Shown piece after piece: positions 1 through 21,181 of a stretch of 64,000 bases of DNA. The DNA comes from a virus (Duplodnaviria > Caudoviricetes), in IMG/VR virus record IMGVR_UViG_3300009671_000010, positions 32,001 through 96,000 of that record, one strand, 5' to 3'. Numbering within the stretch: position 1 is the stretch's first letter; every line of letters begins with the position of its first letter. The position numbers were made by a program, and so were the translations under genes. Below the pieces are notes generated by a model. It did not search any database and was not told the origin of the DNA. It was given only the letters and a program-made list of their open reading frames with translations.

Positions 1-3000
1 ATTAATAAATATGAGCAAAGAATTTTACAAAGGTTTAATGATAATAGACCTGTGAATAATAATACTCCTTATTATTCAATGGGTAGGGGTATCGAAGGTA
101 TTGGACAGTATTTAGGTACTTCTATGGATCGTTTAACAGAAATCATGGGAGAAATAACTCCATTTAAAAAAGATCCTGTTAATCACTTCGGACTATTAGG
201 TGGCGCAAAATATTTATCAGGAACAGTATTTAAAATAGCAGCTGCTACTACCGCTTATAGAATTGCAGATACAGCTATTGCGGCAAATCCTTTATTCGAT
301 AATTCTTCATTTGATGATGGTATTACTGGTATGACGGCTGATCAACTTGCTAAAGCCCGATTATTCAGTGCAAAAGTTGGCGATACAATCGGATTAACTG
401 GTGCAATGAAATATCTCGAGGGTTTGATGCCTGGATCAACATCAACTATTCCTGGTTTAATAGCTGGTGCTGCTATGGGAACTTTTACTAAGACTAGTCC
501 ATTCGGAATGATTAAGGCTATGGCTGCAGGAGCTTTAATAAATAGGGTGGCAGATCCATATATTCCAGACTTTAGTAAAGATTATCAACAAGTAAGAAGA
601 GAATATTCTGGTGAAGAAAAAGTTCCAATGATGAAATCTCCTACTTGGTTACTCGGTTCTACTCCATGGGAAGGTAGTAAAGTAGCAGGATATAGACCTA
701 ACTGGTATGTTAGAGCCAAATCTAGGTGGGAAGCCTCTGATACGATGTATGGAAGTGAATTTAGAGCACTTATACATAAACCAATATTTCCACTTGGATT
801 TAATATCGGTGATATAATTGATCCTTACTACATGGAACGCCGCCACTACTTCGATCGTCCCTATCCAAAGTGTCTTTTTGGAAGTGCTAAAGTAGTTACT
901 GTTAATGGTATTAAGAAAATTAAGGATATCGATATTGGTGATTATGTATATGATATAAACGGTTCTGTTACAAAAGTTATCAATGTACTTAAACGTAAGG
1001 TAAATTATAATGATACAATTTTTTCTATGAGGGTTATTGGTCAGGAAGAAGATTTGATACTTACTTCTGATCATAAAATTCCTATTATAAGGGATAAAAA
1101 ATGTATTTTTAAATCACAACATAATAAGAGTTGCACAGGTAATGATAAAGGAATTTGTAGATATTGTACTAAAAAACGTAAAGATTTTGATATTAGTTGG
1201 GTAGAAGCTAAGGATATAAATATTGGTGATTTTTTGGTGAAAAAACCAATAAATCCTGAATATTTAGGATCCACTATAGATATTTCATTATATGTACAAA
1301 GACCATTTGATATTAAAGAAAATAAAATTTTCATTAAAGATAAACTAGGTAGATATACTGGAGATAGTTTTAATAGATACTGGGATATTGATAACGATTT
1401 AGCTTATTATTTTGGTTTATATTTATCAGAAGGATGGCTTGGTAAACAAAGGGGAAAATATATATCTGTTAATACCGTTCATAATAAAAAAGAATTTGAT
1501 CATATTAATAGAATAATTAATAATATATCAAAAAAATATAATTTAAAGTTTTCATATAAAGATTTTGGAACACATGTAAACTTTTATATATTTGATTATA
1601 TTTTTTCTGATATAATATATGGTTTATTTAATTGTGGTTCTGCTACTAAGAGTGTAAAATTTTTTACTAAAGAATTAGATAGAAAAATATTAGCTGGTTT
1701 ATTTTATGGAGATGGTCATTATGATAAAACACATGTTGTTTTAACCAGTATTAATATGAATTTGATTAATTTCGCAACCATAGTTCTAGAAAATGATTTT
1801 ATTTCTACATGTTTGAAGAAACACTGTGATAATGGTCATCAGTCGTACAGGTTATCATTTTCATATTCATACTTAGATGATTATAGATTGTTATTCGATA
1901 TTAATCATAAAAATGAGAACATATTAACTTCTAATAAGAAGTTACATTTAATTTATTTTAGGAATGGTTATCTTCTTAAAAGAATTATTAAAAAAGAGGA
2001 GATAGAGTATAATGATTTTCTATATGACCTTACTGTAGAATCACCAACACATAGTTTTTCTCTTTATGAATTTATTGTCCATAATTCAGGTAGATTATTT
2101 TCCGAGGTTCCTATTATAGGTGATCTTTTAACTCCTATTGGTAGAATTTTAAAACCCGAGAAAACAATGCATCAGGAGTTCTTACAAGGAGAATGGGCTG
2201 GAACAACTGATGGTGATAATCCTTCTATGGCTTCTTTACCACCTCCAACATATCAACAAAATATGTTTATGATGAACCAGGGAAGTGGTGCTAGAAGTCT
2301 TGGAAGAATTACTGCAAATGGTGGCAATTATACAACTGGGGGAATAACTCCTTGGTCTAAAGTTATTCAAGGTAAAGTTTTCGGAGATGTAACTGAAGCA
2401 ATGGGTTTACCTGGATTTTTAGCAAGAACAACTGCAGAAAAAGTATTTGGTGAACCAGAAGTAATTCCTACACTTGAATCAGCTGGAAGAATGGCTTCTA
2501 TGACAAGATCTTTTTATGATAAGAATCTTGGTGGTATGGGATCACTATGTTTACCAGCTTATGAAAAGATTTTAACACCAAGTGGTTTTATTATGTCTGA
2601 AGATATTAATATAGGTGACATAGTCTATGATAATTTTTATACTGAGCAAAAAGTTGTTAACAAATTTTCGAGATTATGTAGTGAAAATGAAAATTTATAC
2701 ACAATTACTATGGGAGCTGGTAAGACTACGATTTCTATGACTGATGAACATCCTGTTGCCATATATAAAAGAATTTCATGTAATGATAATAAAAAAAGAC
2801 CATGTATACCAAATTACTCAAAAAAATGTTTGACTTGTTCTAAACGTAATAGTCCTATTCATTGGAATTGGACAGCAGCAAAAAATATAAGTGTGGGTGA
2901 TTTTGGTGTTGTTCCTTTACCAAAAATTAAATCATTTAACTATATAGATTTAGCTAAGTATAGTGGTTATGTGTACACTGATAAATATATATATTTTCGT

Positions 3001-5994
3001 GCAACTTTAGAATACGCCAAAGGACTTGAGTTACTTGAAAATAATATTTGTAAAACAAGAAAAGATTTAAGAAATTATATATCTGATAACATAGCTAAAG
3101 AAGTTATCAGATGCTATCGATACCATAATTTTTCTAGAGTACGTATCCCTAGATTTATTAGTATTGATGAAGATTTTTGTTATTTTATGGGATGGTGGTT
3201 AGCTGAAGGTTCATCTGATATTAAAACTGGAAATATATGTTTTACATTAAATATTAATGAAATAAATATTGCACAAAAACTTGGAGAAATTTATAAAAGA
3301 TTTTCAAATTGTTCATATAATATTAAAATTATTAAAGAAAAAAATACTTGTATTTTATCACTTAAAAATAAAGCACTTTCATTATACTTAAAAACCTATG
3401 GTAATGTATATACAAAACAACTAAATGATTTAATTTATTTACCAGATAAATTAGCTATTTCATTATTAGATGGTTTGATAAATGGTGATGGGTGGATCAA
3501 TTATGATTTACAAAGAGGTGGATTTACATCTGTGTCTGAACGACTTGTTAGAGATATATGGTTATTATTATATAGATTAGGTGTACAATCTACTATTATT
3601 TTAAATTATAAAGAGCATCCAAATGGTTATTATCCTCAAGGAACACTAAGACACATAACTACGCGATCTTGTCTTAAATTTAATAAGGATGGTTTTATTA
3701 ATTTATCGAAATGTTTTTCCACTGGAGTTTCGAATGGAGTTATATCAAATGGAAGAGTTTTTACAACAACAGAATATCTGTTTATACAGATAACTGATAT
3801 AAATTTTGTTAATTATTCTGGAAAACCTGTATATGACATAGAAGTTGAAAACTCACATTGTTTTATTGGTAATTATATATTATTACATAATTCTGAACCA
3901 ATAAGAAGACTTTTATCTAAAGAAGAATATAATGAATATCAGGTTAATCCAATACCTAATATGATGCCAAACTTTCTACCTAGTCAATTTCTTACAGGAG
4001 ATCCTTATTCTTCCATTCAAAATGGAGAATTAAGATTACCAGGTAAAGCGTATATGCTAACTAATCCAGATTTAAAACAGAGTATGCCAGGTAGAGCAAG
4101 TAGTTTAGGTGCACCATTGGAAAATATAGTTCAATATTTTACTGGTTTATTACCCCCTAATTTAAAAGAAGAATATGATATATTAGAAACTGGTACATTA
4201 TGGCATAGTAAAATACAGGATACTTTAGCTGCAGAAGGATTGCTTATTAAAGCAGAGGCACTGGTATATGATGTTAAAAATGACATATCAGGACACGTGG
4301 ATGCTATTATTAGAGATGGACAAGGTGGTAAAGGAAGAAGAGCGTTAGAAATAAAAACTATCAGCAATAAAGGATTTGAAAAGCTTGATGCTCCGAAGGA
4401 TCAACATATAGGACAACTTAATTTCTATTTACATCAACTTAGATTTAATAATGGAACTATTTTATATATTAATAGAGATAACCCATCTCAAGTTAAAACA
4501 TTCGAGTTAACTTATAATAAAAACAGATGGGAAAGGGATGTTCAAAAACTACAGCGGGCAAGACAGATAGCTAGAGATATGATGAAAGATGATGTCAGTG
4601 ATACTTTAGGTTATTCCTATTCGTGGCTTGATAGATTAAATATCTTATCTGATGTTGCTCCGATGTCTAATGAATTTAAAGAAGCCAAACAGATTGTTAT
4701 GGCTCAAATTAAGGCTGGTCAATTTACACAAAAAGATATCGATAAATATCATAGAATATTAAAACAACAAAAAGCAAGAGCTAGATCATATGAATTATAT
4801 CCATTAAGATTTAAAGGTAAAGTAATGTCTCCTGACAGTGAGTCTAATATACAATCCATTAATGAGAACATAAAAGCATCTTCAGAATATACTTTACCAG
4901 AAAGATTAATTGGAAGTGCATGGGAAACATTCACAAATTCCAGTAACCCCGCAGTTAATAAATTTTGGGCATTTAAGGATCCACTTGAACATTATAAAGA
5001 AAAGAAATTATATGGTCGTGAGTATACACCGTGGGATGAACCGTATAGAAGCTGGATTGACCCATATATTAGAACTTCTCTTAGTAAAACAAGTACTGTA
5101 GGTGGCGGAGTTTCATGGGGAACTACTGGTTATGTATTTGGAGGTGAGTTTGGAGCTTTTGCTGGAAGTATATTAGGAGCAATGTATGGTACTGTAAATG
5201 GGCTATTTAGATCTGCTTCTAATAGTGCTTATATTCCATCAGAGGTAAAAAATCAAAGAAGAATAAATGAATATTTTGATAAGCTTAAATATGAACGTTC
5301 TAATATGATGTCATCTTTAACTATGGGTAACGTTCGTAATGAATTTTTAGCTCAAAGATCTGCTACTATGTATGCATTTAATAATGAGTCTGATCCATCT
5401 GTTGGTAATTTATTTAGAGCAGCAAGTCCATCAGAAAAACCATATCTACAATCATGGATAAATACAACTGATTCTGGTGAAAGAAATGAAATTTTAAAAC
5501 TTGTTCCAAATGATTTAGGGAGTGCACTTAAGAAGGTATGGGGTAAAAATGATGGTAAAACATTTACTAGAAACAGAATTGATAATATAAGTTCTGATAT
5601 GTCTGGAAATCAACAGAATTTTAATTTTGATGCATCTTTGATGGACCCAAGAATTAACGTGGATGATATAAAATTAAAAGCAATAGAGGATTATGGATAT
5701 AATTGTCATGATTTTGGTTTAGGCTGGAATGAACAAATGTTGAGAATAAAAGAATCAGAACTCAACATACCAAAATCTAATTTAAATGATGATATACCAT
5801 ATACTCCAAATTTATCATCAACGCAAATACGAGGTCAGATATATGAATTACTTCATCAGAGTGGTATTAAATGTAACGTAAATGTCTATATTAATAATAT
5901 GGATGGTCCCAATGTTGTTAATTTAACAGTAAGAAGAGATAGATCACTTGTAGCAATTAATGCATTAAGAAATAGAAGAAAGTATGGAGTTTAA
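1..5994 (+). CDS. Giant virion-associated (tape-measure/ejected-type) protein, 5'-truncated, with two inteins and a PD-(D/E)xK nuclease domain
   Basis: Frame is open from base 1 (ATT AAT AAA TAT...), so the true start lies upstream of the window. Gly/Ala-rich hydrophobic helices; two C...HN/S inteins; motif GTLWH...E...ISGHVDAII...LEIKT...QLNFY at about 4190-4480; lies upstream of baseplate genes. Confidence 0.7.
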   Translation: MNKYEQRILQRFNDNRPVNNNTPYYSMGRGIEGIGQYLGTSMDRLTEIMGEITPFKKDPVNHFGLLGGAKYLSGTVFKIAAATTAYRIADTAIAANPLFDNSSFDDGITGMTADQLAKARLFSAKVGDTIGLTGAMKYLEGLMPGSTSTIPGLIAGAAMGTFTKTSPFGMIKAMAAGALINRVADPYIPDFSKDYQQVRREYSGEEKVPMMKSPTWLLGSTPWEGSKVAGYRPNWYVRAKSRWEASDTMYGSEFRALIHKPIFPLGFNIGDIIDPYYMERRHYFDRPYPKCLFGSAKVVTVNGIKKIKDIDIGDYVYDINGSVTKVINVLKRKVNYNDTIFSMRVIGQEEDLILTSDHKIPIIRDKKCIFKSQHNKSCTGNDKGICRYCTKKRKDFDISWVEAKDINIGDFLVKKPINPEYLGSTIDISLYVQRPFDIKENKIFIKDKLGRYTGDSFNRYWDIDNDLAYYFGLYLSEGWLGKQRGKYISVNTVHNKKEFDHINRIINNISKKYNLKFSYKDFGTHVNFYIFDYIFSDIIYGLFNCGSATKSVKFFTKELDRKILAGLFYGDGHYDKTHVVLTSINMNLINFATIVLENDFISTCLKKHCDNGHQSYRLSFSYSYLDDYRLLFDINHKNENILTSNKKLHLIYFRNGYLLKRIIKKEEIEYNDFLYDLTVESPTHSFSLYEFIVHNSGRLFSEVPIIGDLLTPIGRILKPEKTMHQEFLQGEWAGTTDGDNPSMASLPPPTYQQNMFMMNQGSGARSLGRITANGGNYTTGGITPWSKVIQGKVFGDVTEAMGLPGFLARTTAEKVFGEPEVIPTLESAGRMASMTRSFYDKNLGGMGSLCLPAYEKILTPSGFIMSEDINIGDIVYDNFYTEQKVVNKFSRLCSENENLYTITMGAGKTTISMTDEHPVAIYKRISCNDNKKRPCIPNYSKKCLTCSKRNSPIHWNWTAAKNISVGDFGVVPLPKIKSFNYIDLAKYSGYVYTDKYIYFRATLEYAKGLELLENNICKTRKDLRNYISDNIAKEVIRCYRYHNFSRVRIPRFISIDEDFCYFMGWWLAEGSSDIKTGNICFTLNINEINIAQKLGEIYKRFSNCSYNIKIIKEKNTCILSLKNKALSLYLKTYGNVYTKQLNDLIYLPDKLAISLLDGLINGDGWINYDLQRGGFTSVSERLVRDIWLLLYRLGVQSTIILNYKEHPNGYYPQGTLRHITTRSCLKFNKDGFINLSKCFSTGVSNGVISNGRVFTTTEYLFIQITDINFVNYSGKPVYDIEVENSHCFIGNYILLHNSEPIRRLLSKEEYNEYQVNPIPNMMPNFLPSQFLTGDPYSSIQNGELRLPGKAYMLTNPDLKQSMPGRASSLGAPLENIVQYFTGLLPPNLKEEYDILETGTLWHSKIQDTLAAEGLLIKAEALVYDVKNDISGHVDAIIRDGQGGKGRRALEIKTISNKGFEKLDAPKDQHIGQLNFYLHQLRFNNGTILYINRDNPSQVKTFELTYNKNRWERDVQKLQRARQIARDMMKDDVSDTLGYSYSWLDRLNILSDVAPMSNEFKEAKQIVMAQIKAGQFTQKDIDKYHRILKQQKARARSYELYPLRFKGKVMSPDSESNIQSINENIKASSEYTLPERLIGSAWETFTNSSNPAVNKFWAFKDPLEHYKEKKLYGREYTPWDEPYRSWIDPYIRTSLSKTSTVGGGVSWGTTGYVFGGEFGAFAGSILGAMYGTVNGLFRSASNSAYIPSEVKNQRRINEYFDKLKYERSNMMSSLTMGNVRNEFLAQRSATMYAFNNESDPSVGNLFRAASPSEKPYLQSWINTTDSGERNEILKLVPNDLGSALKKVWGKNDGKTFTRNRIDNISSDMSGNQQNFNFDASLMDPRINVDDIKLKAIEDYGYNCHDFGLGWNEQMLRIKESELNIPKSNLNDDIPYTPNLSSTQIRGQIYELLHQSGIKCNVNVYINNMDGPNVVNLTVRRDRSLVAINALRNRRKYGV
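871..2085 (+). mobile_element. Intein 1 with LAGLIDADG homing endonuclease (405 aa)
   Basis: N-terminal CLFGSAKVVT, block B LTSDHKI, endonuclease motifs GLYLSEG and LAGLFYGDG, C-terminal YDLTVE...FIVHN followed by Ser. Confidence 0.93.
2548..3891 (+). mobile_element. Intein 2 with LAGLIDADG homing endonuclease (448 aa)
   Basis: N-terminal CLPAYEKILT, block B MTDEHPV, motifs GWWLAEG and LDGLINGDG, C-terminal VYDIEVENSHCF...LLHN followed by Ser. Confidence 0.93.
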
Positions 5995-8900
5995 ATTGGC
6001 TTTATTCAAAAATGATGATAAAAAAGAAAAAGATAAATTCTGGTTTGTTAAAGTTGCTACTAATGCAGCTATTGCTGGTGGAGCTTTTTATGGATTTAAA
6101 AAGGTAAAAGGACCAGCTGGATCAATCATTAAAAAAATTACAGATACAAATATAAATACAACTGTTGAAAAAGAAGCAGCTAAATACATTAAAACTTCAG
6201 AAGAATTTTCTAATGGTTACAATCCTTTTGATGAAGATGATTTAATTAATCCAAATATTCCAGATCAAATGATGACAATGACTGAATCTCTTATAAGTTC
6301 TAGTGAGGATAGTCTTATATCTGAAATAAATACTCTCAGTAATACTGATAAAGAATTTGGTGAAAAGTTTTCTATTTTCTACTCTAGATTTAATAGTCTT
6401 GAAAAATATGCAATTTCATATGGTCTTGATGGTGAAGATGCACATATAATTTTAGCACTTAGATCTGTTGTTCAAAAAGCACTTGCAAATGGCGTAGTTG
6501 ATGATAGTATTATTTCTAAGGTTAATTCATTACATGAAAAGTATTTAAAGCAAAACGCTTATGGTGTTTTATATCAAAGCCAATTACATCATCTTAAAAA
6601 TAATGCCAGGAAAGTTGTATTTGATAATATGTCATCGAAAGATGTATTAAAAAAATCAATTCTTGGTGATGTTACAACTGACTTAAGTTCTAAAGTAGAA
6701 TCACATCTTCTTGCTGATTTATTTAAAAGGAATAAATCTATCGAGGAATTTGTTCCTGGACAGATTAACAGTGCTCTTACACATGAGCTTGGTTCAACTA
6801 TATCTTCTTTCAAAAAAACAGTTGACTATAATCCACTACTTACAAGGATAGATGACAAACTTAGTTTAATCGAAGCAAAACCAAATTCCAGTATTACTTC
6901 ACATGCTATTCAAATAGCTAGAGATACAAATGGAAAACAGTGGGCTCATATAAATATAACTTTAAATAGCGGGAAGACACACACATTGGAAGTTCCACTT
7001 GCAAAAAATATGATTGTTCCAGGTTCAAATTCAACTGTAAGTTCATATGTTGATATGTTATTCACATTTGGTGGATCTCCAGCAAGTCCATATCAAAATG
7101 TGAAAAGTGCATTAAATTCAAGTGAATATATATTACATACAATATCAAAAAGACTTGATACTAATTCTTCTTTTATGAGTGAGTTTATTAGTGATACTAG
7201 TAATGCTATTCATAGATTAAATAATGAAATTAATGGAATACTTGATAACCTTACAATATATCAAGGTAAACCTGGTCAGTTGATATTACAATTATATAAT
7301 CCAGAATATGATAAACTTTTACATCAAAATGGTGAAGCTGGTCAAAGACAATATGACAAAATGAATCGTGCATTAAATAATATGTCTATGATGAATAGAA
7401 TGGTTCAATATAAAAAAGAAATAAAAAGTGGTAGAATTGGACGTGTATTTATAGTATCATTGGATACAGAAACGATAATGGCATCACAAACACATATACC
7501 TGGTTTAGAACACACTGCTAGAAATCCACAAACTCACTTAGTACAAATTGGTATTGACATAGCAGAGGTTAACAATTCTATGACTCCTAAAGTAGTGGAA
7601 TCTAAAAGATTTTATAGTGATCATGCTACTAATGCTTTGAAAAAAGATAATCTTTTTGATACAAAACAAATGGAATTCATACGTAAGGTTACACCTGGAG
7701 TTGATGCAAGTACAAGTATTGATGAAGTTATAAGCAAATATACTGAACATATTAAATTAAAAACTGATCAAACTGGAACGCGTGCTGCTAATGATACACA
7801 ATTTGCAGACAGTCTTTTAGATTATCTTGATCAATTCTTTGAACACAGTAAAACTGGTAAACTTGGTATTAATGATAAAGTTGTTATAGTTACAAAAAAT
7901 GGTCAACAATATGATTTACCATTGATTAAATTACATGCTACTAAAATGAAATGGAATAAATTTGAACGTAAATATAAAAATATGATTGATACTGGTTCTC
8001 TTGGGGTAATAGAATCAAAATATAATTTCGATGATAGTCCCCTTGGATTGGATTCCGTTATGAAAGGTATTCTTAATAGAACAGGTTTTGGAGATCCGAA
8101 TGTCGATTTTAATAATCCTAAAGTCATAGGAAGTGTATTAGATCATTTTGAAAGAAAAGGTTATCTTACAATTGATAATAATGTTAAAAAACAATTACAG
8201 GGTGCACTAACTCAAACGCATGGTGAAGCAGTAGTGGATGCATTATTTAACATAGTCATATATCAGGATATGTTTCTAAAGGCATCTACTAAAAGAGGGA
8301 TTTGGGATACATCTACACAATTAAAATTAAGAAAAGTAAATGATATGTTTCATGGATCTGCTTCTATTTATGAAAATGTTTTAACTAGAATGGAAAATGA
8401 CTCAGCTTATTTTAATGGGAAATTATTTACTGGATTTTTATCATCTGCTAATAGAGCTACAAAGGGTGCCTTGTATGAAGAATCAGCTGGAGCATTGTAT
8501 GCTTTTGGAGGTGGGTCTAACTTATCTAAACAGATATATCAAAATTTATCTGGACATACATTATCACGAAATATAAACATATCACCAAAAAAAGGTAGAA
8601 ACATTTTTAGAAAAACACTAACTACATTACCCGCTGTTGAATTACATCTAAAAAGAGAAAAAGCAAATAAACAAGCTGGTCTATATAGAGGTAAAGGAGT
8701 AACTCATAACAGTATAACTGTTAAATCAGCTCAAGTTATTTACTCTGCTGCAGAAACTGAAGGTTTGGCAATTTTATCTACTGACATAGCTAAGCAGGTT
8801 AATGTATTACATGATATGAATGTAAATATTAGTTCTATTAATTTTAGCGGAAATAGTACAGATGTAGGACCTCGTATTGATAAGTTTAAAAATATATTAT

Positions 8901-11900
8901 TAGATGCAATGTTAAATGAAAAGAGTAGTAAGCCAGGAAGTATAATTGATATTAATAGATTAGCAAAAAGAATTGCTTCGAGACCCGATATTAATCTTGC
9001 TAGACTACCGCGAGGTACTACTATTGGATCAGGTGATCTTGGACAGATTATATTGAAACATACAGCTAATATTGAGGATTTTGAAATTACACCAATAGAT
9101 GTTAATGGTAGAATTGATTTGGATATACGTGTAAAAATATCAAGAAAGGCTAGGGTTGATGGAAGTGAAGCATGGAAGGCTCGTGATATAAGTGGAAATA
9201 AATCTGTTCTTACATACTCTGATCCAAGTCAAAAAATAAATGGATTATATGGACATGATTTTAGAACTGAAGCAAAATGGATAAAAGATGGTAATGTTTC
9301 AGCTTTTAAAGATTCAGCTGTAAATAAAATTATAGGCACATTACAAGAACAAATTTATTCTGGTGATAGAAAACAATCTATACAAGCTAAATGGCAATTA
9401 AGAAAATTTGCAAGGGAAATTGGCGCTGACATAGTTAAAGATGAATTAATACTTAATCCTTATAAAATGAAAAAAACTAAGTATAAGCATTTGGGTAAAA
9501 AGGAAGAACAGCTTGCACACGCTATTTATGGGGCTCTAGACATCAGTTTAGATACAATCAATAGGTATATGAAGCCTGTTGGCAGTACGTGGTCTAGTGA
9601 GCGTTTAAAGGAGTTTTATGCTAATTTTGGAGGCGGGGATTATAATAAAGGTAGAAGTATTGCTAAAAGATTAGCTGATTCAATGTATGATAAAGCTGTT
9701 TCTAAATTAAAAAATGCAAGTCAGGAAGCATTATATTCAGTTAGTAAAGGTGATGTTTTAAAGGTAGAAGAAGAATATAGAAGAATAGCTGATTCTATAT
9801 ATCAACCAAAAGAAGGCGATACAATTTTTGCTGAATGGGCTAACTCTGATCCTAATGTCAAAAGTTCACATAAATCACTTATATTCTCCTCATTCAGTGA
9901 AATAAGTTTACATTCAGGTAGTATCACTGGAGAAGGTTTCGGATATCATACATTAAAAATGAGTAATAATGTAGTAGATCATATTCTTAGGTCAGATTAT
10001 ATTTCAAAAACTACTAAGGATATGGTTTCCAGTAATAGAGTCTATTATAGAGATGATATAAAGGCGAAAGCTAAAAAATCATTGGATAAATTTAAAAGAG
10101 AAGTATTTGCTGAAGCTTCTATGGCAACACATCTTGATCTTAATGAAATTAATAAATTATTATCTAGACCTGGGACTGAAATGCTTTCTTCTAATAATTT
10201 GGCAAAAAGTATTGATGAAGAGTTGAAAAAAAATATAGCTGGTTATAATATAGAAGCAGATGATATTCTTATTGATGTTAAAGATTCTATGATGACAACG
10301 ATTGAAAAATATAAAGATCATCTAGTTATGATTGATAATGAACTTGATGATCCAGAAAAATTTAGAGAGTATAAAGAAAAACTTGTTTCAAATATTATTT
10401 CACATCATAGAATGGAAACTGCTTTAAAAAAACAAAGTAAATTCGTTACCTATGAAGAAACAAGTGTATGGGCAAAAATGGCTAAAGAGCATAATAATAT
10501 TTTTAGGATTAGTAATAGTGTATCTGGTTTACCAGCAGTATTTGATATTGATATGAATAAAACCTTTAATTCTATTTATGGATCTACAAATTATTCTAAG
10601 CAACAGAAAAATTTATTTGTTAAAATGCTTAATGATATGTTAAAATATCAGCAAAAAAATAAAGTCGATGGACCAATTATATCTATTGATGGAGATAATG
10701 TTAAACTTAGAGAATTATTTATACCAGCACATGATGTAGCAGCAAACATAGCTGACAAAGTTGCTGGACCAATTGCTAGGGAAACTCCAGAAACATATAG
10801 TTCTAAAAGATTCTTACAATCAGTTGTATCTTATGCTAATGGTTTAACTATGCAGGGATGGACAGATGTTAATGCTAAAAGTTCCTATGAAACTATGATT
10901 AAGTTCTGGACTATGCATATTCTTGATACAACTATTGGTAATAAATCTGTATATGGTCAATGGCAGTCATCTAATTTAAAAGTTCAACAGTTTAAATCAA
11001 AAGGTGCTGAAAATTTATATATACAGGCACTTGAAATAAAAAATGCAGGAGGTATGAAAGCTATAGCCAAAGATAAAAATGTATCAGCTGATTATATACG
11101 TAGAGGTAATGAGATTCTTGAACAAATTTTAAATTCAAAATTTAATACTACATTCATATCAGAGACTGCATTTAAAAAAATGAAAGTTGACATAGGTGCG
11201 GGATTATCTACATCGTCAGAATCATATCTCAAGTCATTATCTACTAAGCAGGATAATCTATATAAAAGAATAGTTTCTGGTGAACAGAAAATGATTGGTT
11301 TTTCTACTCGTTATCCAAATGAACCACAGGGACAACACGCAATGATGGATACCATGATTCAGGTTATACCTGATGAATATAAAAAATATTTCCTAATGGA
11401 TGACTGGAGTGCATATACATATGATATATTTACTCAAATGATTAAGATGGACCATGATGGTGATGTTAATAACATCGGTTTAACCAATGTTAATACTATT
11501 GAAAAATTTAGGACTCACCGTAAAGAAATAAAGAATAAATCAAAATTATTATTTCAAAAAATTACTAATGTTATAGAAAAGCAAAAATATGATTATCATA
11601 CATGGATGAGACCTATAGGACTTGATGAAAATGGTGTTATGGATATACTTACATTTGATAAAGTAACCTATAGTCCCAGGGTTATAAAAAAAGAACTAAC
11701 TCAAGCATCTACTGATGAATTAGCTGAATTATTTGCTGGAGACAATATGTCAGCTTTTATTGCTGGATATGGTACTCAACTTCCTGAATTCATGACTGGT
11801 AGAGGATTAAATGCTATTAGGGTTCAAGCTGCATCGGCTGCTGCCACTAAAGATACTATGGGTATTGCAACCAATAGTGTAATGCGTGCAAACATAGCTA

Positions 11901-12919
11901 TGAAAGCTGGACTAGTTAAAGATCAGCATATTATTAATGATTTTTTTGGTGACATGAAAACTGGTTTAGGACGATTTTTACAAGATGTTACTGGTATTAC
12001 AAAAAATCCTACATTAGAAAAAATTATATCATTATCTAGGCAACTTGAAGTTTTACATGGAAAAACATCTGATCTTGAAGCAGTTGAACAATTTAAAGAT
12101 AGTTATATTAAAACATTTGAAAATGAGGCTAAATCTCTTGGTGATGAATATGATTTATTTCTTAATAAAAAAGGTTCTTTTTATGAGAATAAGAAAAATC
12201 AAATAGATACATATATCATGGTTAATAAAATTATTAATACGGCTAATAGAAATAGTGTTACGTTTAGAGATGCATATAAACAAGTTGTTCAATCTGAAAT
12301 GAATTCACCATCCAGAGGTTTGACTAGTATTTTTAATCAACCAGAAGATATTGGGCGTGATGATATATTTGCTGGAGTTCTAGAAAATGCAAGGCAAAAT
12401 CATTTTTATGAAACAAGTTCTATATTTGATGAGTTTTCTGAAAACTTTAAAAATAAAATAAAACTTAGTCATCCTATTATTAATAATAGTAAAAAATTTG
12501 CTAAATATGGTGCTATTGGTGCATCGGTGTTCTTAGCTGCTAATTTCTTTAGGTCAAATCAATTAAGTTCATCAGCCAATCCTTTAGATATGTTTGTTGA
12601 CTTAGATAATAATATAAATTCTGACAATAATATTTTTTCTTCTGATTTACAACTTGATAGAGGATCTTCACTTGAAATGGTAGATGCGTCATTCTCTAAA
12701 AAAGCTTTTGTTAGAATGAATAAAATACAACAAGGTAAAATGAATCAATATAAGTCAAAACAAATTAATAGTATTTTAGGCAGTATGTCTGAAAATTACT
12801 CAAATACAGGCTTTAATGTTTCAAATAGAGATATAGTAACCAATGCGAACTATACTAGTCATATTGGTAAATTCGGTAATAATAATATAGTAAGAAAGAG
12901 AAAATATGGTGGTTATTAA
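5984..12919 (+). CDS. Putative single-subunit two-barrel (DPBB) DNA-dependent RNA polymerase with an N-terminal DEDD/DnaQ-like exonuclease domain; probably virion-packaged
   Basis: DEDD motifs LDTET, KNGQQYDLPLI, HGEAVVD; beta-like WKARDISGNKSV; beta'-like STRYP...KMDHDGDV. Start may be TTG at 5996 (GGAG Shine-Dalgarno). Confidence 0.72.
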   Translation: MEFKLALFKNDDKKEKDKFWFVKVATNAAIAGGAFYGFKKVKGPAGSIIKKITDTNINTTVEKEAAKYIKTSEEFSNGYNPFDEDDLINPNIPDQMMTMTESLISSSEDSLISEINTLSNTDKEFGEKFSIFYSRFNSLEKYAISYGLDGEDAHIILALRSVVQKALANGVVDDSIISKVNSLHEKYLKQNAYGVLYQSQLHHLKNNARKVVFDNMSSKDVLKKSILGDVTTDLSSKVESHLLADLFKRNKSIEEFVPGQINSALTHELGSTISSFKKTVDYNPLLTRIDDKLSLIEAKPNSSITSHAIQIARDTNGKQWAHINITLNSGKTHTLEVPLAKNMIVPGSNSTVSSYVDMLFTFGGSPASPYQNVKSALNSSEYILHTISKRLDTNSSFMSEFISDTSNAIHRLNNEINGILDNLTIYQGKPGQLILQLYNPEYDKLLHQNGEAGQRQYDKMNRALNNMSMMNRMVQYKKEIKSGRIGRVFIVSLDTETIMASQTHIPGLEHTARNPQTHLVQIGIDIAEVNNSMTPKVVESKRFYSDHATNALKKDNLFDTKQMEFIRKVTPGVDASTSIDEVISKYTEHIKLKTDQTGTRAANDTQFADSLLDYLDQFFEHSKTGKLGINDKVVIVTKNGQQYDLPLIKLHATKMKWNKFERKYKNMIDTGSLGVIESKYNFDDSPLGLDSVMKGILNRTGFGDPNVDFNNPKVIGSVLDHFERKGYLTIDNNVKKQLQGALTQTHGEAVVDALFNIVIYQDMFLKASTKRGIWDTSTQLKLRKVNDMFHGSASIYENVLTRMENDSAYFNGKLFTGFLSSANRATKGALYEESAGALYAFGGGSNLSKQIYQNLSGHTLSRNINISPKKGRNIFRKTLTTLPAVELHLKREKANKQAGLYRGKGVTHNSITVKSAQVIYSAAETEGLAILSTDIAKQVNVLHDMNVNISSINFSGNSTDVGPRIDKFKNILLDAMLNEKSSKPGSIIDINRLAKRIASRPDINLARLPRGTTIGSGDLGQIILKHTANIEDFEITPIDVNGRIDLDIRVKISRKARVDGSEAWKARDISGNKSVLTYSDPSQKINGLYGHDFRTEAKWIKDGNVSAFKDSAVNKIIGTLQEQIYSGDRKQSIQAKWQLRKFAREIGADIVKDELILNPYKMKKTKYKHLGKKEEQLAHAIYGALDISLDTINRYMKPVGSTWSSERLKEFYANFGGGDYNKGRSIAKRLADSMYDKAVSKLKNASQEALYSVSKGDVLKVEEEYRRIADSIYQPKEGDTIFAEWANSDPNVKSSHKSLIFSSFSEISLHSGSITGEGFGYHTLKMSNNVVDHILRSDYISKTTKDMVSSNRVYYRDDIKAKAKKSLDKFKREVFAEASMATHLDLNEINKLLSRPGTEMLSSNNLAKSIDEELKKNIAGYNIEADDILIDVKDSMMTTIEKYKDHLVMIDNELDDPEKFREYKEKLVSNIISHHRMETALKKQSKFVTYEETSVWAKMAKEHNNIFRISNSVSGLPAVFDIDMNKTFNSIYGSTNYSKQQKNLFVKMLNDMLKYQQKNKVDGPIISIDGDNVKLRELFIPAHDVAANIADKVAGPIARETPETYSSKRFLQSVVSYANGLTMQGWTDVNAKSSYETMIKFWTMHILDTTIGNKSVYGQWQSSNLKVQQFKSKGAENLYIQALEIKNAGGMKAIAKDKNVSADYIRRGNEILEQILNSKFNTTFISETAFKKMKVDIGAGLSTSSESYLKSLSTKQDNLYKRIVSGEQKMIGFSTRYPNEPQGQHAMMDTMIQVIPDEYKKYFLMDDWSAYTYDIFTQMIKMDHDGDVNNIGLTNVNTIEKFRTHRKEIKNKSKLLFQKITNVIEKQKYDYHTWMRPIGLDENGVMDILTFDKVTYSPRVIKKELTQASTDELAELFAGDNMSAFIAGYGTQLPEFMTGRGLNAIRVQAASAAATKDTMGIATNSVMRANIAMKAGLVKDQHIINDFFGDMKTGLGRFLQDVTGITKNPTLEKIISLSRQLEVLHGKTSDLEAVEQFKDSYIKTFENEAKSLGDEYDLFLNKKGSFYENKKNQIDTYIMVNKIINTANRNSVTFRDAYKQVVQSEMNSPSRGLTSIFNQPEDIGRDDIFAGVLENARQNHFYETSSIFDEFSENFKNKIKLSHPIINNSKKFAKYGAIGASVFLAANFFRSNQLSSSANPLDMFVDLDNNINSDNNIFSSDLQLDRGSSLEMVDASFSKKAFVRMNKIQQGKMNQYKSKQINSILGSMSENYSNTGFNVSNRDIVTNANYTSHIGKFGNNNIVRKRKYGGY

Positions 12920-13088
12920 TCTAACTATTGATCTACAGGATGGAATACAACCTGATAATATTATTTCATCTATTCAAGCAATCTTATCTCAAATTACAAA
13001 TAATCAAACTATGGTTAATGTTAATGAAGTAAATGATCCCATATCATTAAGTCCTATATCTTTTAATAAAATTGGAGATTCTGAATGA
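12906..13088 (+). CDS. Small hypothetical protein (60 aa)
   Basis: Fills the gap between two giant genes, overlaps both and is coupled by ATGA to the next gene. Confidence 0.6.
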   Translation: MVVINLTIDLQDGIQPDNIISSIQAILSQITNNQTMVNVNEVNDPISLSPISFNKIGDSE

Positions 13089-16000
13089 CTAGTAATCTGC
13101 TGTCTATCTGTACATATCTTAAATCTGTTTTTGTTTTAGAACATGATAAATATTATTCTTTTGATTATTCATCAAATATGTCTAAAACTGTATCAATTAA
13201 AAATATAATTAATGATGAATTAAATAAAATAGATGCCAAAATTAATTTTAATAAACAGATTAGATCAGTTGATTTTCAACTTGGAGACATAGTATATAAA
13301 GATTCTATTAATGAATTATATATTATACTTGGTGTTGATGGTGATAAAGTATTTACTTTTCCAGACAGTAAAAATGCAAAATGGATTAATACATCTACTA
13401 AGTCATATACAGTTATAAGACCTGATTACAGTTCTGTTAAAATGGATAATATAAATACTAGAATTAATGATAATATTACTAAAGATATAACTAATAAACT
13501 TAAATCTAATGAAGGTACGTTTATAACTAATTATAATCAGTTACCTGATTCATCATTACAAATTGGAGACATAGTTGTTGCTGTCGATCCAATACAAATA
13601 TCTTTTAGTACTCAGAATGGATATCAATATTATCCTACAGTTAGAACTAATGGTAATCCTATTCTTCCATCCCCGCAGCAAATTAAGAATATATCAGTAG
13701 TTCTTATATTTCCAAATGAAGATTCTATTAATAATCAGCTATTGAATATATATGCAATGTACAGAAGAACCCCTTTTGTTAATATTCGTAATAAACATAT
13801 ATGTGATTTTTTTAAAGATATTAAATCTGAAAAATCAGATTATATACCTGTAGCATTAGAAAGTATAAATATTGAATCTGTATCTGGATTTCCAAATACA
13901 TTACAGGCAACTCTTACTTTACTTCCATTTGATCCTAGGGTTATATCAAACGGATTATTAGCATTAAGATCATTATCTGATGTACAAAATCAAACTATTG
14001 ATAATGATTATCTTTTAAAAGAATATAATAAAGCTATTGAAAGAATGGATAGTAGTTTATATAATTCAAATACTTTCAAAAATGAAGATATTATAACTAA
14101 ACCTGTCAGATATTCTGATGATTTTAGAGAAAGTCTTCCATTTAGAGCATTCTATCAATCAATGATATCTGAAAAAAAATATGTAGAAGATGAATATGGA
14201 AATGTTGTTCCAATTAAAGATATATCTGGTATCGAAATAGCAGATGGATATGATATAAGTGCATATAGACCAACTAATAGTTATAATATGTTACATAGAT
14301 ATACTTCAATTGATAATATTAAACCTATTTCTTTCAAATATTCATATCTTAAAGATGATTATAGATCACTTATAAAAGATATATCCAAAAATAGAGTTAT
14401 AAATCAAGAAGAACTTGTTAATAAATTAAAGGATACTCTTATTCAATTAAATTCTAAAGATACAATGATAAGTTCTATATTTACAAGTTGTTTGTCTTTT
14501 AAGGATTATGTTGCTGAAACTGAATTTACATGGAATAAAGTTGATAATGCACTTAGAAATCTTTTTATTGAAAGTGGAATAGATGTACCTAATCAGAGAG
14601 TAAATTACAATCTTTCTGAAAAAGATATTGGAAATAATGTTACTTCTTTATTTAAGTTTCTTATAGAAAATATAATGAGGAGTGGTTCGAATGCAGTTGG
14701 ATATAATGCACTAAAAAATATACGATCTATAGTTGATGGAAGAAACATAGTAGTAGATGATTATATTGGTTTACTTAATCAATTATATGTTCAAACAGAT
14801 AATGAATTTAACTCTGGAACCAAACTTGTAGGTCTACCAACTTTAATAGATAATATATGGAAATGGTTAAATATAAATGATAATAATAAAATTGCATTTG
14901 CACAATTTTTAAAGAATTGGACTGAAGCACTTGCTAATGATCTTAATACTGGAATAATGACTACTGATATATCATCTCCATCATCTGATATTCAAGGAAA
15001 AAAAATATATAGATTACCTATAGAAAATGATACTATATCTATTGATTCTAAAAATAATATTATTCAGAACTGGAACATAGTGTTTAGCAATAAATTTGTA
15101 CCTATCAATATACAATCTTTTAAATATCCATTTTATCAACACCTTGGTAGTGAAAATGCATCAATTAATCTAAACATAGTTTCTGTTAATAATTCTGATT
15201 TTATTTCAAAAATTTCACAGTTATCTGATAGATTATTAGATTCTTCAAAAGTTTTATCAATGTGTTGTCCTGAATTATTAACATGGCTTGACTCTAGAAT
15301 AACAGTCGAATCTGATACAAATAATATATTTAATGTATTTGGATTTAATAAAGTATCTTATAATTCTTCTAATATTACAAATATACAGGGTCAGCCTGGA
15401 TGTTGGAACATTGTATTGAATTTAACACAATCAAATATAAGTGTAGCTGATTATACAAACATACAACAAGAAAATGATAATTATGCTTATATAGAAGAAC
15501 TTGCTAAATTTATATGTAGGTTACAGATTGAAAATGATAATATAATTGTAGTTGATTATTATAATGAAGATAATACTCTTATAACTGATTTAGAAGATAT
15601 GATAAAATGTTCTTTTATGTTTTCTAAGTATATGGTTATGCTTAATGATGAAACTGGATATTTATCCACTGTAAAAGATAATAGTGTTACTTTGGGTAAA
15701 AAAAAGCTTTTAGCTGATCTTAAAAAGAATGGTGTATATAGTATCATTAATGGTTCTTTAAGTAGTGTACTTAATAACTTTTTTTCTAAAAATGATATAT
15801 TCTATAAAGAATTAAAGACAGTTTTATTTAATGTTGATAAATTACATAAAAAAGAATATCTATTATTTAATAATTTATTAGCAGACAAAAAAAAAATATT
15901 TGAAAGTAATAATGTTAAATTTACCGATGTTTTGTTTGCAGTAATTGGTCCAAATAGATTATTTACTATTTCCAGTATTGTTAATAAAAGTGTTGGTACT

Positions 16001-19000
16001 GTAAGTAAAAATATATTACATAATCAGTTAAACAAAATCCTTATTAGTACTACAAATAGATTTAAAGGATTAATTGATTCATATAAAAAAGAAGTAACTA
16101 TTTCACTTGCACATTCTATTATAAAAGATCCTGCTATGATTAATAACTTAGTTAAGTATAAATTCTTACCAGAATCTGTAAAAAAAACAAATACTTATTC
16201 TAACTGTTATCCAGATTTTGATATTCCTAATTTTTCAATAGATAATAAATTTACAGTATTATCACCTGATTTTTATTTATATAAACCTTCCGTATATAGT
16301 AAAGATATATATGAATATTTAAATACATCACTCGATACAATTTCAAGAGTAGATAATCTTTCTCAAATGATAAATTTTAGTGACTATGAAAGTTATATTA
16401 ATAAATATGAAGATATACGCTCTAAGATTGATTTTGATTCTACTAAGTTAGATAAGATTGATAAAATATTACAATATAAAACAAATATAACAGATTCACT
16501 TGATTATGTTAGAAAACAATATTTTAATTTAATTCTAGAAGATAAGACAGAGATATCTAAAGATGATAGTGATAAGATAGTCGCAATTTTGGATACACTT
16601 GATAATGATGTAAGATTTAAAAATAATCCTGATCAAGTAGCTGCTATAAAGTCTTATTATGGTATGGTTTTAAGAATAAGAGGAACATCGCAACATATTA
16701 ATACTGATGAATTTAAAATTGATATGATAAAAGCCGCAAGAATGGGTCTGATAGTTGAAATACTAGAAATATATGTAGCAATTAATGAATTCTTAGGTGC
16801 TATTGTTAAAAACAGATCAGATGATTATATTAATAGTGTTGTTAAAACAGCAGCAACAAATGTTTCATTAAAATCAATTTTTGATAAATTTTTTTCAAGT
16901 TCAAATAACATTGCTGATACAAATAAAATTCTTGTTACATCCTTAACTGATATTCAATTTAAAGTTAAGAAGATATTAGAAAATCCAGAAACCAATGTTT
17001 TACCTGATAAAATTAATATTAATTTTCAAAAAGGTTTACCATATAATCCAGATGATAAAAAATATACAGTTCTTCCAGAATTACAAGTATTAGAAACTAA
17101 TTTATATAATAAAATAGGTTCATTGATAAGAATGAATTTATTTATTGATGATGTTAAATCTAATGTTGCTAAGAAAGTTAATGTATCAGATTATGTACCA
17201 GAATATGCTGCACTTGATTATTGGAATGTTCAACAAAAAGAATCTAATAAAGAAAGAGTTGATTTACTACAACAACTACAGAATGCAACATCACATCATA
17301 ATAATGGATTTCTTAAAATGTATCCAACCTTTAAAATATATTTTGTTGAAGAAAATAAAGGGCTTACATTTGAATTTAGTAACTATTTTTCTTACAATGC
17401 TGTACAATCTATAGAAATAATTAAACAGAAATCATCTGCAAGTAATACAGCAGTAATAAGACTGAGTAACATTGCTGGAAATTTAAGTGATAGATTTAGT
17501 TTTATGAGAGAACAAGTTGATACATTTGCTGCAGTAAATCCTAATGTTAATAATATTAAATTTCTCGGTACTCTTAATATCAAACCAGGTACCCAGATGA
17601 TAGTTAAACAAGGTTATGCTTCAGATGAAAAAAATCTTAAAACTGTATTTATTGGGAAAATAATTGAAATGAATCCTGGTCCTGATATTGAAATTATATG
17701 TCAAAGTTATGGTGCACAGTTATCATATGAAATTCCAAGAATGAAATTTAATATGTTTTCCAGAGAAAAAGCATATGGTGAGATAGTTAGTGCTATTTTG
17801 GATAAAATTCCAGACTTGAATAAAATGGGTAAATTTGATTTATTTAATCAAGGATTACAAACTTTTTCTGGAATAAATCTTAGAAATTATAAAAGTAATT
17901 TTTATGAAAGATTTATGTTATCGAATTTATTTGGTAAAGTGAGTGCATTGGAATTTGCTAAGGATAATCCACGAGATGAGAATATATATCTTCCATATAA
18001 TTTATTAATCAATTCATTATATCATCCTACATTTGACTGGATAATATATAATCAGTCTATTTGGGAAGCTATACAAGAAATATGTTTATATAATGATAAC
18101 GCTACCCCAATGGTAAAAATATTTAATGATGATTTTATGAGTAATAAGAATCAGATAAGAGAAACACTGGTAATAGGCGATAAATCAGGATATTATAAAT
18201 ATACAGATTCATTTGCATTAAGTTCACTGGATTATAAAAAAATTGATGAAGTGATTAAAGAATCTAGTACCATTATAAGTACAATTTTATCTTTTAAAAT
18301 AGATGCATTCAATAAAGAAGAGACACAAAGACGTGGTTTTTTTATATCAAATACAGGTAATAGATATAAACTTAATAGTAATCTTATTAATGTGTATTCA
18401 TTTTTCCAAAATGAATTGAATGTAAAAGTTATGATAAAATATTTAATGAGTAAAATTGAATTTACTACTAAAGTTGACATAAGTGATATAATGGAAGTTA
18501 TTACTGGTTCATCTTCTCTTTTTACCAAAAAAGATTCTAATACAGAATTACTTAGTAGTATTTGTAAGTTTTATTCACTCGGACCAATCACTGATGATAT
18601 CAGAGAATATTATTTTGATTCAGCTAGGGCAAATGATATGAATCGAATTGAATATTTTAATGATATTATAAAGTATATACAAAAAAGTAATCTTGATTTT
18701 AATCTAAATAAAGAAATGTTATATGATGTAAATACTGTATTATCTAATAAGGATGATAACCTAGCTTCTAACTTACAGTATAAAAAGATACAACAACATC
18801 ATCTTATTACTGATACTAGGGATATTATTTCGAATAATATTATCTTAAATTCTTCTTTTGCAAATTCAGTTAACTTATATTATTTTGATGAACCAAAATT
18901 TCAACATGCTAGTATGGAATTGATAACTGAAAAAGATATTAATAATTTAAAGATTTTTCCTATTAAAGCATTCGGTGATATACAGGATAGTGGACTTAGA

Positions 19001-19898: not shown

Positions 19899-20672
19899 AT
19901 GAATAATATGATTTTAGAACAAAATTCACTACAGTTTTATTTAGGAGAATTAGCTGAGACTAATTACTATAATGAGCAACAACACTTGGTTAGAGTTAAA
20001 TTTAAAAATAGCTATTATGATATGCATTTATTTGGGTATACAGTAGAAGTTCCAGATCCTAAGTATCATCTTGTTATGTTTTTAGCTCCAGAAAGAAGTA
20101 TTTCTACTTCATCCATAGATGGCGATGCTTTAAATAATCCTCCAGGAATAGTTAATAATAAGGTTGTTGATGTACAATTTTGTGTTGCTTTTCTGATTAA
20201 TAGAACACAAAAACTGTCTACCACAAATGCTCAAACTGGTACAGCTAGTTTTGCTATTTCAAATACTAACTTTTATGATTCTAATAATGTCCGTGTGGCT
20301 ATTACTGCTCCAACTTCTAATGACTATACTAGGGTTAATGATGATTCTGGAGTAGATTCTAATAGAAATCAAAGTATAGGATTATTTTTAAATGATGACA
20401 GTGTATTAATTAAATCACGAGGTTCATCGATTACACTTGGTGATGATGGTATACATATTGGTGGTAATGTTTCTTGGGAACAAACTTCACATGGTAAAGG
20501 CGTAATGGCTAGGAACCAATTTGCAGAAATAATTCCATCAAGCATTCCTACTGCTATTATATCTACACCCAATATACCAAATGTAACTCAATTTCTTATG
20601 TTTGCTGAAGCTGGTCAAAGAGTTATGTCTGTAATAAATAAAGCTGGAAAAGTACTGGAGATATTAAAATAA
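19899..20672 (+). CDS. Putative baseplate central spike (gp5/gpV-like) protein
   Basis: Position between hub and gp25; short beta-strand repeats SVLIKSRGSSITLGDDGIHIGG. Confidence 0.4.
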   Translation: MNNMILEQNSLQFYLGELAETNYYNEQQHLVRVKFKNSYYDMHLFGYTVEVPDPKYHLVMFLAPERSISTSSIDGDALNNPPGIVNNKVVDVQFCVAFLINRTQKLSTTNAQTGTASFAISNTNFYDSNNVRVAITAPTSNDYTRVNDDSGVDSNRNQSIGLFLNDDSVLIKSRGSSITLGDDGIHIGGNVSWEQTSHGKGVMARNQFAEIIPSSIPTAIISTPNIPNVTQFLMFAEAGQRVMSVINKAGKVLEILK

Positions 20673-21181
20673 TGGAACCTTTTAGTGAAATGTTTGATAT
20701 AACTCTATCGTATGATACGGATATTTTATTTAGTTCTGGAGATTTGGATATTACAAATGGAGTTGATTATATTGAACGTGAGATATATAAAATATTAGTT
20801 ACATTTGTTGGTGAATGGAAATTAAATCCAACAATTGGTTGTGGTTTGAAAGAATTTGTTGGACAAGAAAATTCTAGGAATACAGCACAGAAAATTGAAA
20901 AAAGAATTCAAGATAGTCTTATATTAACAGTTTATCCAGCACAAGTTAATGTCAGAGTAGTACCAAGTAATTATAATACTATTTTTTGTTTTATAGATGT
21001 CATTGGACCAAATATAAACATTACCAGTATTCCATTTGAATTTACTTTTACAACTGGTACTATTAAAATACATAGAGCAGATAAAAATGTACAAAACATA
21101 TCTGATACTAATTTGGATATTAATGATATCACAAATATGAGAAAACCTAATAAATATCAAAATAGTTTTAGGAAAGTTTAG
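20672..21181 (+). CDS. Baseplate wedge gp25/GPW-like protein
   Basis: Pattern GDLDITNG...GEWKLNPTIGCGLKEFVG; size; precedes baseplate J. Confidence 0.75.
   Translation: MEPFSEMFDITLSYDTDILFSSGDLDITNGVDYIEREIYKILVTFVGEWKLNPTIGCGLKEFVGQENSRNTAQKIEKRIQDSLILTVYPAQVNVRVVPSNYNTIFCFIDVIGPNINITSIPFEFTFTTGTIKIHRADKNVQNISDTNLDINDITNMRKPNKYQNSFRKV

What the first reader, a model, noticed from the sequence alone, without database searches (positions are those of the whole stretch)
8700..12000. Hidden single-chain two-barrel RNA polymerase in a giant virion-module gene
Seen: within the 2311-aa ORF, WKARDISGNKSV (9173-9208) reproduces the beta-subunit motif K-x7-K ending in GNK (E. coli GDKMAGRHGNKGV). 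It is preceded by ETEGLAILSTDIA (resembles EDxIxxS). Further on are STRYP (R at 11309) and KMDHDGDV (D-x-D-G-D at 11450-11464), matching beta' NRxP...NADFDGD, then a bridge-helix-like ATKDTMGIATN. Established: beta-barrel-then-beta'-barrel order in one chain is the architecture of crAss-like virion RNAPs (phi14:2 gp66), YonO and QDE-1. Inference: this myovirus-type phage packages and ejects a highly diverged single-subunit RNAP. Its location between a tape-measure-like gene and the baseplate hub means it would probably be annotated as hypothetical.
Basis: partly seen in the sequence, partly recalled or inferred. Interest (0 to 1): 0.87.

Follow-up and report, generated by a model that had tools for sequence, protein, structure and literature searches.

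The report
Hidden RNA polymerase in phage tail-module giant
A 2311-residue protein with no database annotation, encoded among the tail genes of an uncultured contractile-tailed phage, contains a single-chain version of the cellular RNA polymerase core behind an exonuclease-like domain, so the phage probably carries its own transcription enzyme into the host.

Summary
Every motif is at the stated coordinates. In a family of about 2300-residue metagenomic proteins that are only about 22% identical, E926, K1073, R1776, P1778, D1823/D1825/D1827, T1963, Q2000 and K2007 are invariant or nearly so.

The gene sits in a conserved block: giant 1, this gene, giant 3, then baseplate genes. The block recurs in two distant contigs.

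Verdict: this is a real single-chain two-barrel RNA polymerase with an intact catalytic set, fused behind DEDDh exonuclease motifs. Packaging into the virion and ejection are inferred from gene position only.

It is a new sequence family and architecture of a known kind (crAss gp66, P23-45 gp96). This scan has already reported what appears to be the same exonuclease-polymerase fusion on other DNA.

The parts
5984..12919 (+). Whole gene, 2311 aa (P0001). Its ATG overlaps the stop of the upstream giant gene by 11 nt.
   Evidence: the same 8-nt overlap is seen in relatives L014 and L015
6038..6097 (+). N-terminal Gly/Ala-rich hydrophobic helix (aa 19-38), followed by GPAGSIIKK. A similar N-terminus occurs in giant 1.
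   Evidence: W20, F21, K40, G43 and P44 are conserved in the family
7451..8248 (+). DEDDh (DnaQ/RNase T-type) exonuclease motif set: D494-x-E496, N639-x4-D644, D669, H746-x5-D752.
   Evidence: All are invariant or nearly invariant in 20 homologues. Support here is at motif level only: no Pfam or PDB sequence hit, and hhalign to RNase T ExoIII gives P 0.017.
8573..9946 (+). Beta-like half containing DPBB-A (aa 864-1321). E926 = nt 8759-8761, R1067 = nt 9182-9184, K1073 = nt 9200-9202.
9947..10978 (+). Connector and clamp-like region (aa 1322-1665), including a low-confidence stretch at aa 1411-1483.
10979..11488 (+). Beta-prime-like DPBB-B (aa 1666-1835). R1776-x-P1778 = nt 11309-11317; D1823-H-D-G-D1827 = nt 11450-11464.
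11798..11902 (+). Bridge-helix-like 35-residue helix (aa 1939-1973) carrying K1956, T1963 and N1964.
11963..12055 (+). Helical hairpin in the trigger-loop position (aa 1994-2024) with invariant Q2000 and K2007. Position 2008 is His in 15/20 relatives but Asn here.
   Evidence: The assignment as a trigger loop is inference.
12476..12919 (+). C-terminal module (about aa 2165-2311) with a hydrophobic helix. It holds 12 of the 38 invariant columns in about 6% of the protein's length, and it ends in RKRKYGGY.
   Evidence: Function unknown; a virion-incorporation or ejection signal is inferred.
1..5994 (+). Upstream giant 1 (2902 aa in the full genome; open at its 5' end in the window). It has inteins and a Cas4/RecB-like nuclease.
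   Evidence: Conserved upstream of the polymerase gene in L014 and L015.
13085..19897 (+). Downstream giant 3 (2270 aa). It has a lysin-like C-terminal region and Gly-rich hydrophobic segments, and it is the more tape-measure-like of the three giants.
   Evidence: It is 33% identical to its counterparts in L014 and L015.
20672..22446 (+). gp25-like (169 aa) and gp6-like (418 aa) baseplate wedge genes.
   Evidence: PHROG 120 at E 1.6e-9 and PHROG 6 at E 1.1e-33

Best explanation
Residues about 864-2040 of this 2311-aa protein form a single-chain two-barrel (DPBB-A then DPBB-B) RNA polymerase. The catalytic set appears complete: a DxDGD metal loop, an RxP strand, a conserved Glu and Lys in the beta-like barrel, a bridge helix and a trigger-loop-like hairpin. 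This core is fused behind a DEDDh-type 3'-5' exonuclease motif set and flanked by hydrophobic terminal modules. The gene lies inside the late structural operon, between the sheath/tube genes and the baseplate genes, and is translationally coupled to another giant enzyme-bearing protein. The most likely mechanism (inferred) is that the protein is built into the virion, is ejected through the contractile tail with the DNA, and transcribes the first phage genes independently of host RNA polymerase. Later genes would probably use host polymerase redirected by the phage sigma-like factor. The role of the exonuclease is open; it may trim or proofread RNA 3' ends or attack host nucleic acid.
Confidence: 0.7

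Rival explanations
1. The protein is itself the tail tape measure, or part of the tail-lumen complex, with a fused polymerase. This would follow the P23-45 gp96 model, in which the enzyme transcribes while anchored in the membrane channel rather than being released as a free cargo protein.
Against: Three giants share the slot. Giant 3 looks more like a tape measure, with a lysin-like region and Gly-rich hydrophobic segments. P0001 has no metallopeptidase domain. Unlike the clamp-less, flat gp96, its model has a region that aligns with the clamp.
Confidence: 0.12
2. It is a two-barrel polymerase with a different specificity. It could be an RNA-dependent RNA polymerase or primase-like enzyme. 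Alternatively, given the fused 3'-5' exonuclease, it could be a proofreading DNA polymerase that follows the PolD logic of an exonuclease plus a two-barrel catalytic core.
Against: The bridge helix and trigger-loop-like hairpin are RNAP features, and PolD scores far below the RNAPs. The phage has its own family-B DNA polymerase and a primase-helicase. A dsDNA phage has no evident need for an RdRP.
Confidence: 0.08
3. It is an active RNA polymerase that is not packaged. It would be made late and act inside the infected cell, for example on late genes.
For: Nothing here shows virion association. The record is about 48% complete, so the transcription programme is unknown.
Against: A polymerase encoded inside the structural operon and translationally coupled to other giant proteins would appear too late to start transcription of that operon. 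It has terminal hydrophobic modules shared with giant 1. The precedents with this gene placement are virion proteins (PMC10770324; 10.1101/2020.03.07.982082).
Confidence: 0.06
4. It is a structural protein that keeps a relic RNAP fold without catalysis.
For: Giant virion proteins often carry decayed domains. The His at the trigger-loop position is lost in this protein.
Against: Every residue expected for catalysis is invariant across relatives of about 22% identity, while only 1.8% of columns are invariant overall.
Confidence: 0.04

Closest known systems
Thermus phage P23-45 gp96 (tape-measure-fused virion RNAP; PDB 8H2M/8H2N) and the non-virion paralogues gp64 and P74-26 gp62 (PDB 8F72, 8F5M); PMC10770324
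   Different: There is no significant sequence similarity. gp96 has its polymerase at the N-terminus of a 5002-aa siphovirus tape measure with a metallopeptidase domain, and it is clamp-less. Here the polymerase is the C-terminal two-thirds of a 2311-aa protein of a contractile-tailed phage. It has a clamp-like connector and an upstream DEDDh exonuclease motif set.
crAss-like phage phi14:2 gp66 virion RNAP (PDB 6VR4); 10.1101/2020.03.07.982082
   Same: It is a giant (2180 aa) virion protein with DPBB-A then DPBB-B in one chain. It is one of a run of adjacent giant structural genes. Its YRIPNQGQ...DFDID segment aligns to TRYPNEPQGQ...DHDGD.
   Different: gp66 belongs to a podovirus. Its motif is DFDID, not DxDGD. 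No exonuclease is reported for it. There is no detectable sequence homology beyond about 55 residues (P 0.018). gp66 did not appear in my structure lists, so fold-level closeness to it is untested.
QDE-1 and RDR2 (eukaryotic RNA-silencing two-barrel polymerases)
   Different: They are eukaryotic, act on RNA and ssDNA templates, and share no sequence similarity with this protein.
Multisubunit RNAP beta/beta-prime (Rpb2/Rpb1), including the split phage forms of AR9 and phiKZ
   Same: Both barrels, the clamp-like region and the bridge helix superpose. Seven relatives carry exactly DFDGD, as in NADFDGD.
   Different: This protein is one polypeptide with no other subunits and lacks most lineage domains. 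Pfam RNA_pol_Rpb1_2 finds nothing in the genome.

Membership tests
Two-barrel (DPBB) RNA polymerase superfamily | Beta-prime-type double-psi beta-barrel carrying the DxDxD metal-binding loop | tested here: met
Two-barrel (DPBB) RNA polymerase superfamily | Second, beta-type DPBB with a conserved basic residue or residues and an acidic residue facing the active site | tested here: met
Two-barrel (DPBB) RNA polymerase superfamily | The two barrels are packed face to face to form one active site | tested here: inconclusive
Two-barrel (DPBB) RNA polymerase superfamily | Bridge helix, and trigger loop, after DPBB-B | tested here: met
   A 35-residue helix at aa 1939-1973 carries invariant T1963 and near-invariant K1956 and N1964. 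It is followed by a helical hairpin at aa 1994-2024 with invariant Q2000 and K2007. The gp96 alignment covers this span. The trigger-loop identity is inferred.
Two-barrel (DPBB) RNA polymerase superfamily | Template-dependent NTP polymerisation | not testable with these tools
   This needs biochemistry.
crAss-like virion RNAP (gp66 family) | Detectable sequence homology to gp66 or crAss RNAP profiles | tested here: not met
   tblastn against phages finds nothing. hhalign of the family profile against gp66 gives P 0.018-0.05 over 55 residues around the motif only.
P23-45-type tape-measure-fused vRNAP (gp96 family) | Polymerase at the N-terminus of a tape-measure protein with a metallopeptidase domain and membrane segments, and a clamp-less flat structure | tested here: not met
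   The polymerase lies at aa 864-2040 of 2311. There is no peptidase hit. A clamp-like region aligns with beta-prime clamps. Sequence similarity is P 0.0014 over 55 residues only.
Virion-packaged (ejected) RNA polymerases | Presence in purified virions and delivery into the host | not testable with these tools
   Only gene position and conserved synteny in the structural operon support this.
DEDDh (DnaQ/RNase T) 3'-5' exonucleases | ExoI D-x-E, ExoII N-x(2-4)-[FY]-D and ExoIII H-x(4-5)-D in order, on an RNase H-like fold | tested here: inconclusive
The motifs are present and invariant: D494, E496, N639, D644, H746 and D752. However, there is no Pfam or PDB sequence hit, hhalign to RNase T gives P 0.017 over 24 residues, and the fold was not modelled here.

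The most novel reading that the evidence does not exclude
The family is a previously undescribed class of injected transcription machine. It would be an RNA polymerase physically coupled to a dedicated DEDDh 3'-5' exonuclease, which no known RNAP has. The exonuclease might serve for transcript proofreading or processing, or for clearing host nucleic acid. The protein would be co-delivered through a contractile tail with a second giant enzyme carrier (giant 1: nuclease plus helicase-loader-like regions) that shares its N- and C-terminal targeting signals.
Probability: 0.3. Interest if true: 0.8.

Novelty: new variant of a known kind. Interest (0 to 1): 0.62.

Why it matters
Two groups of phages are known to hide a cellular-type RNA polymerase inside a giant virion protein: crAss-like podoviruses and Thermus siphoviruses. 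This family would extend that strategy to large contractile-tailed phages. It uses an unrelated sequence family and a new domain combination of exonuclease plus polymerase. That supports the view that host-independent early transcription by ejected two-barrel polymerases is widespread but invisible to standard annotation, since Pfam, PHROGs, BLAST and PDB sequence searches all fail here. The polymerase evolves much faster than its structural neighbours, which fits an enzyme at the host interface. The exonuclease fusion offers a testable case of a polymerase coupled to an exonuclease outside DNA replication.

Tried and rejected
**Searches on P0001 that returned nothing useful**
- Pfam, PHROGs and a PDB sequence search gave nothing meaningful.
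- tblastn of P0001 against the phage and plasmid collections, and of P0021 against phages, gave no match.
- Word-indexed homologue searches found only one close relative. The family came from the exhaustive HMMER search.
- Four IMG/VR scans found nothing, and alignment A1 was too divergent to give search patterns.
- The metagenome scan gave only a 1.3-kb fragment.
- The first genome-contig scan was empty. The second gave L014 and L015.
- The ESM Atlas gave only unnamed viral clusters scoring below 0.9.

**hhalign comparisons**
- The beta-like half against rpoB, gp66, gp64 and gp96 gave no signal.
- The exonuclease region against DnaQ gave nothing, and against RNase T it was weak.

**BFVD lead not resolved**
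- BFVD gave long structural matches to a 'minor tail protein' of Siphoviridae sp. ctnpt50 (E 2e-8), to an unnamed entry, and to an Acinetobacter phage ME3 protein (E 2.5e-4).
- I could not locate the ME3 gene. A profile search of the ME3 record was empty. Its two DxDGD sites lie in small unrelated ORFs.

**Rejected**
- A second DxDxD site, DFDID in the 567-aa ORF at window 35796-37499, is chance in an Asn/Tyr/Ile-rich fibre-like protein.
- K1065 is rejected as a catalytic lysine because it is not conserved.
Full report
**Observation**

The window is bases 32001-96000 of a 111,472-bp linear virus record. CheckV estimates that record to be about 48% complete.

The ORF at window 5984-12919 (+) encodes 2311 aa (P0001).

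From composition, D.DGD is expected 0.04 times in a protein of this size. Together with an R.P 35-60 residues upstream it is expected 0.0008 times.

**The family**

Standard annotation fails completely. There is no meaningful Pfam, PHROG or PDB sequence hit, and tblastn finds nothing in 50,697 phage records or 72,556 plasmids.

An exhaustive HMMER search of 1.84 billion representatives found 23 proteins. Most are 2250-2400 aa and 21-28% identical to the query, and all are metagenomic and unnamed.

Mean pairwise identity in an 11-sequence alignment is 22.5%, and only 38 of 2152 columns are invariant. Those invariant or near-invariant columns fall into four groups.

- **Beta-prime-like motifs:** R1776 (19/21), P1778 (21/21) and D1823, D1825, D1827 (21/21), with G1826 at 18/21. 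Seven relatives read exactly DFDGD.
- **Beta-like barrel:** E926 (20/20) and K1073 (19/20).
- **After the second barrel:** K1956, T1963 and N1964 lie in a long helix, followed by Q2000 and K2007.
- **N-terminal DEDDh set:** D494, E496, N639, D644, D669, H746 and D752.

R1067 (15/20) is the conserved basic residue.

**Fold**

I modelled aa 860-2059 with a 24-sequence alignment. The model has pLDDT 74.8 and pTM 0.72, with one disordered stretch at aa 1411-1483.

- **Foldseek against the PDB:** all top-50 hits are the largest or second-largest subunits of multisubunit RNAPs.
- **Secondary structure:** DSSP shows a 35-residue helix at aa 1939-1973, which I take as the bridge helix. A helical hairpin follows at aa 1994-2024, in the trigger-loop position.

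**Sequence-level bridges**

These bridges are weak but consistent. The family profile's best local alignment to four independent polymerases always lands on their catalytic segment and pairs RxP...DxDGD with theirs.

| Polymerase | Residues aligned | P-value |
|---|---|---|
| P23-45 gp96 | 738-792 | 0.0014 |
| P23-45 gp64 | 285-335 | 0.004 |
| E. coli beta-prime | 442-470 | 0.007 |
| phi14:2 gp66 | 1321-1375 | 0.018 |

In addition, 12 of 15 weak PDB profile hits are beta-prime at NADFDGD. This matches the published remark that two-barrel RNAP families share little beyond the DxDxD region (PMC10770324).

**Context**

The record encodes a terminase, a portal protein, a major capsid protein and a 913-aa sheath upstream. 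Three giant genes follow, of 2902, 2311 and 2270 aa. After them come gp25-like and gp6-like baseplate proteins.

- **Giant 1** carries inteins and a Cas4/RecB-like nuclease.
- **Giant 3** has a lysin-like region and Gly-rich hydrophobic segments. It is the more tape-measure-like of the three.

Giants 1 and 2 overlap by 11 nt. They share a Gly/Ala-rich N-terminal helix followed by GSI(V/I)K, and a C-terminal R(K/R)RKYG.

Two contigs from MAGs, L014 and L015, carry the same block. The MAGs are labelled Bathyarchaeia and Omnitrophota, and the contigs are probably mis-binned phage DNA. The block runs 183-aa protein, giant 1, polymerase giant, giant 3, 257-aa protein, gp25-like, gp6-like.

In those contigs the polymerase giant is the most diverged member, at 22-23% identity. 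Its neighbours are 32-55% identical.

Elsewhere the record has a family-B DNA polymerase, a primase-helicase, an ERF recombinase and a sigma-70 region-2 protein. No second RNAP was seen, but the record is incomplete.

**Mechanism**

Shown by the tests here: a two-barrel RNAP fold, a fully conserved catalytic set, and conserved placement in the structural operon.

Inferred: the protein is incorporated into the virion, ejected with the DNA, and starts early transcription independently of the host polymerase. This is the role shown experimentally for phi14:2 gp66 (10.1101/2020.03.07.982082) and P23-45 gp96 (PMC10770324). The phage sigma-like factor suggests that later genes use the host polymerase.

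The exonuclease motifs are invariant. In my tests, however, the domain is supported only at motif level, and its role is open.

**Comparison and novelty**

The protein works like gp96 and gp66 but fails the membership tests for both families.

- It has no sequence homology to either.
- The domain order differs.
- It has a clamp-like region, which gp96 lacks.
- It has an upstream exonuclease-type motif set.
- It comes from a contractile-tailed phage.

I found no paper describing such a family in the searchable library. I could not check it against the 23 family alignments of PMC10770324, because that supplement is not held.

This scan has already reported what appears to be the same exonuclease-polymerase giant on other DNA, for example notes e1-3270818 and e1-1954232. 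Note e1-5865540 reports the exonuclease domain of this very gene.

I therefore rate it a new variant of a known kind. It is of solid interest but is not a first sighting.

Noticed in passing
window 1-5994 and 5984-12919 (giant 1 and giant 2): The two giants share terminal features despite having no BLAST similarity: a Gly/Ala-rich hydrophobic N-terminal helix followed by G(K/P)xGSI(V/I)K, and a C-terminus ending in R(K/R)RKYG. Giant 3 lacks both. This may be a common virion-incorporation or ejection signal.
   Followed up: partly
window 12476-12919 (aa ~2165-2311 of P0001): The C-terminal ~150 residues hold 12 of the 38 invariant columns, so they are proportionally more conserved than the rest of the protein (consensus NFFRPxQxSNSxNPLD and PLDMVNASFSKQAF). 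The segment includes a hydrophobic helix and has no known relative.
   Followed up: no
L014:9977-17044 and L015:9995-16840 compared with the window: Within a conserved gene block the polymerase giant is only 22-23% identical between relatives, whereas its neighbours are 32-55% identical. This is unusually fast divergence.
   Followed up: partly
L014 (CAYVGZ010000001.1) and L015 (JALNZI010000006.1): Contigs binned into a Bathyarchaeia MAG and an Omnitrophota MAG carry this phage tail module. They are probably phage contigs mis-binned into MAGs, so they give no reliable host.
   Followed up: no
L003:10911-11714 (-), genome 105911-106714, outside the window: A 267-aa protein matches Sigma70 region 2 (E 1.2e-10). 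It is probably a phage sigma factor for host polymerase.
   Followed up: no
window 1-5994; L003:1972-5433 (-); L003:13793-16237 (-): Inteins with LAGLIDADG or homing-endonuclease domains interrupt giant 1, the primase-helicase and the family-B DNA polymerase.
   Followed up: no
model of P0001 aa 860-2059 against BFVD: There are long structural matches to viral proteins annotated otherwise: 'Minor tail protein' of Siphoviridae sp. ctnpt50 (E 2e-8, 1158 columns), an unnamed entry A0A7R7G2L5 (E 5e-6), an Acinetobacter phage ME3 protein (E 2.5e-4), and weaker ones in Microcystis phages LMM01 and MaMV-DC. These may be further hidden polymerases in cultured phages.
   Followed up: partly
window 35796-37499 (+): A 567-aa Asn/Tyr/Ile-rich fibre-like protein contains DFDID, the crAss gp66 catalytic motif string. 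I judge this to be chance.
   Followed up: yes
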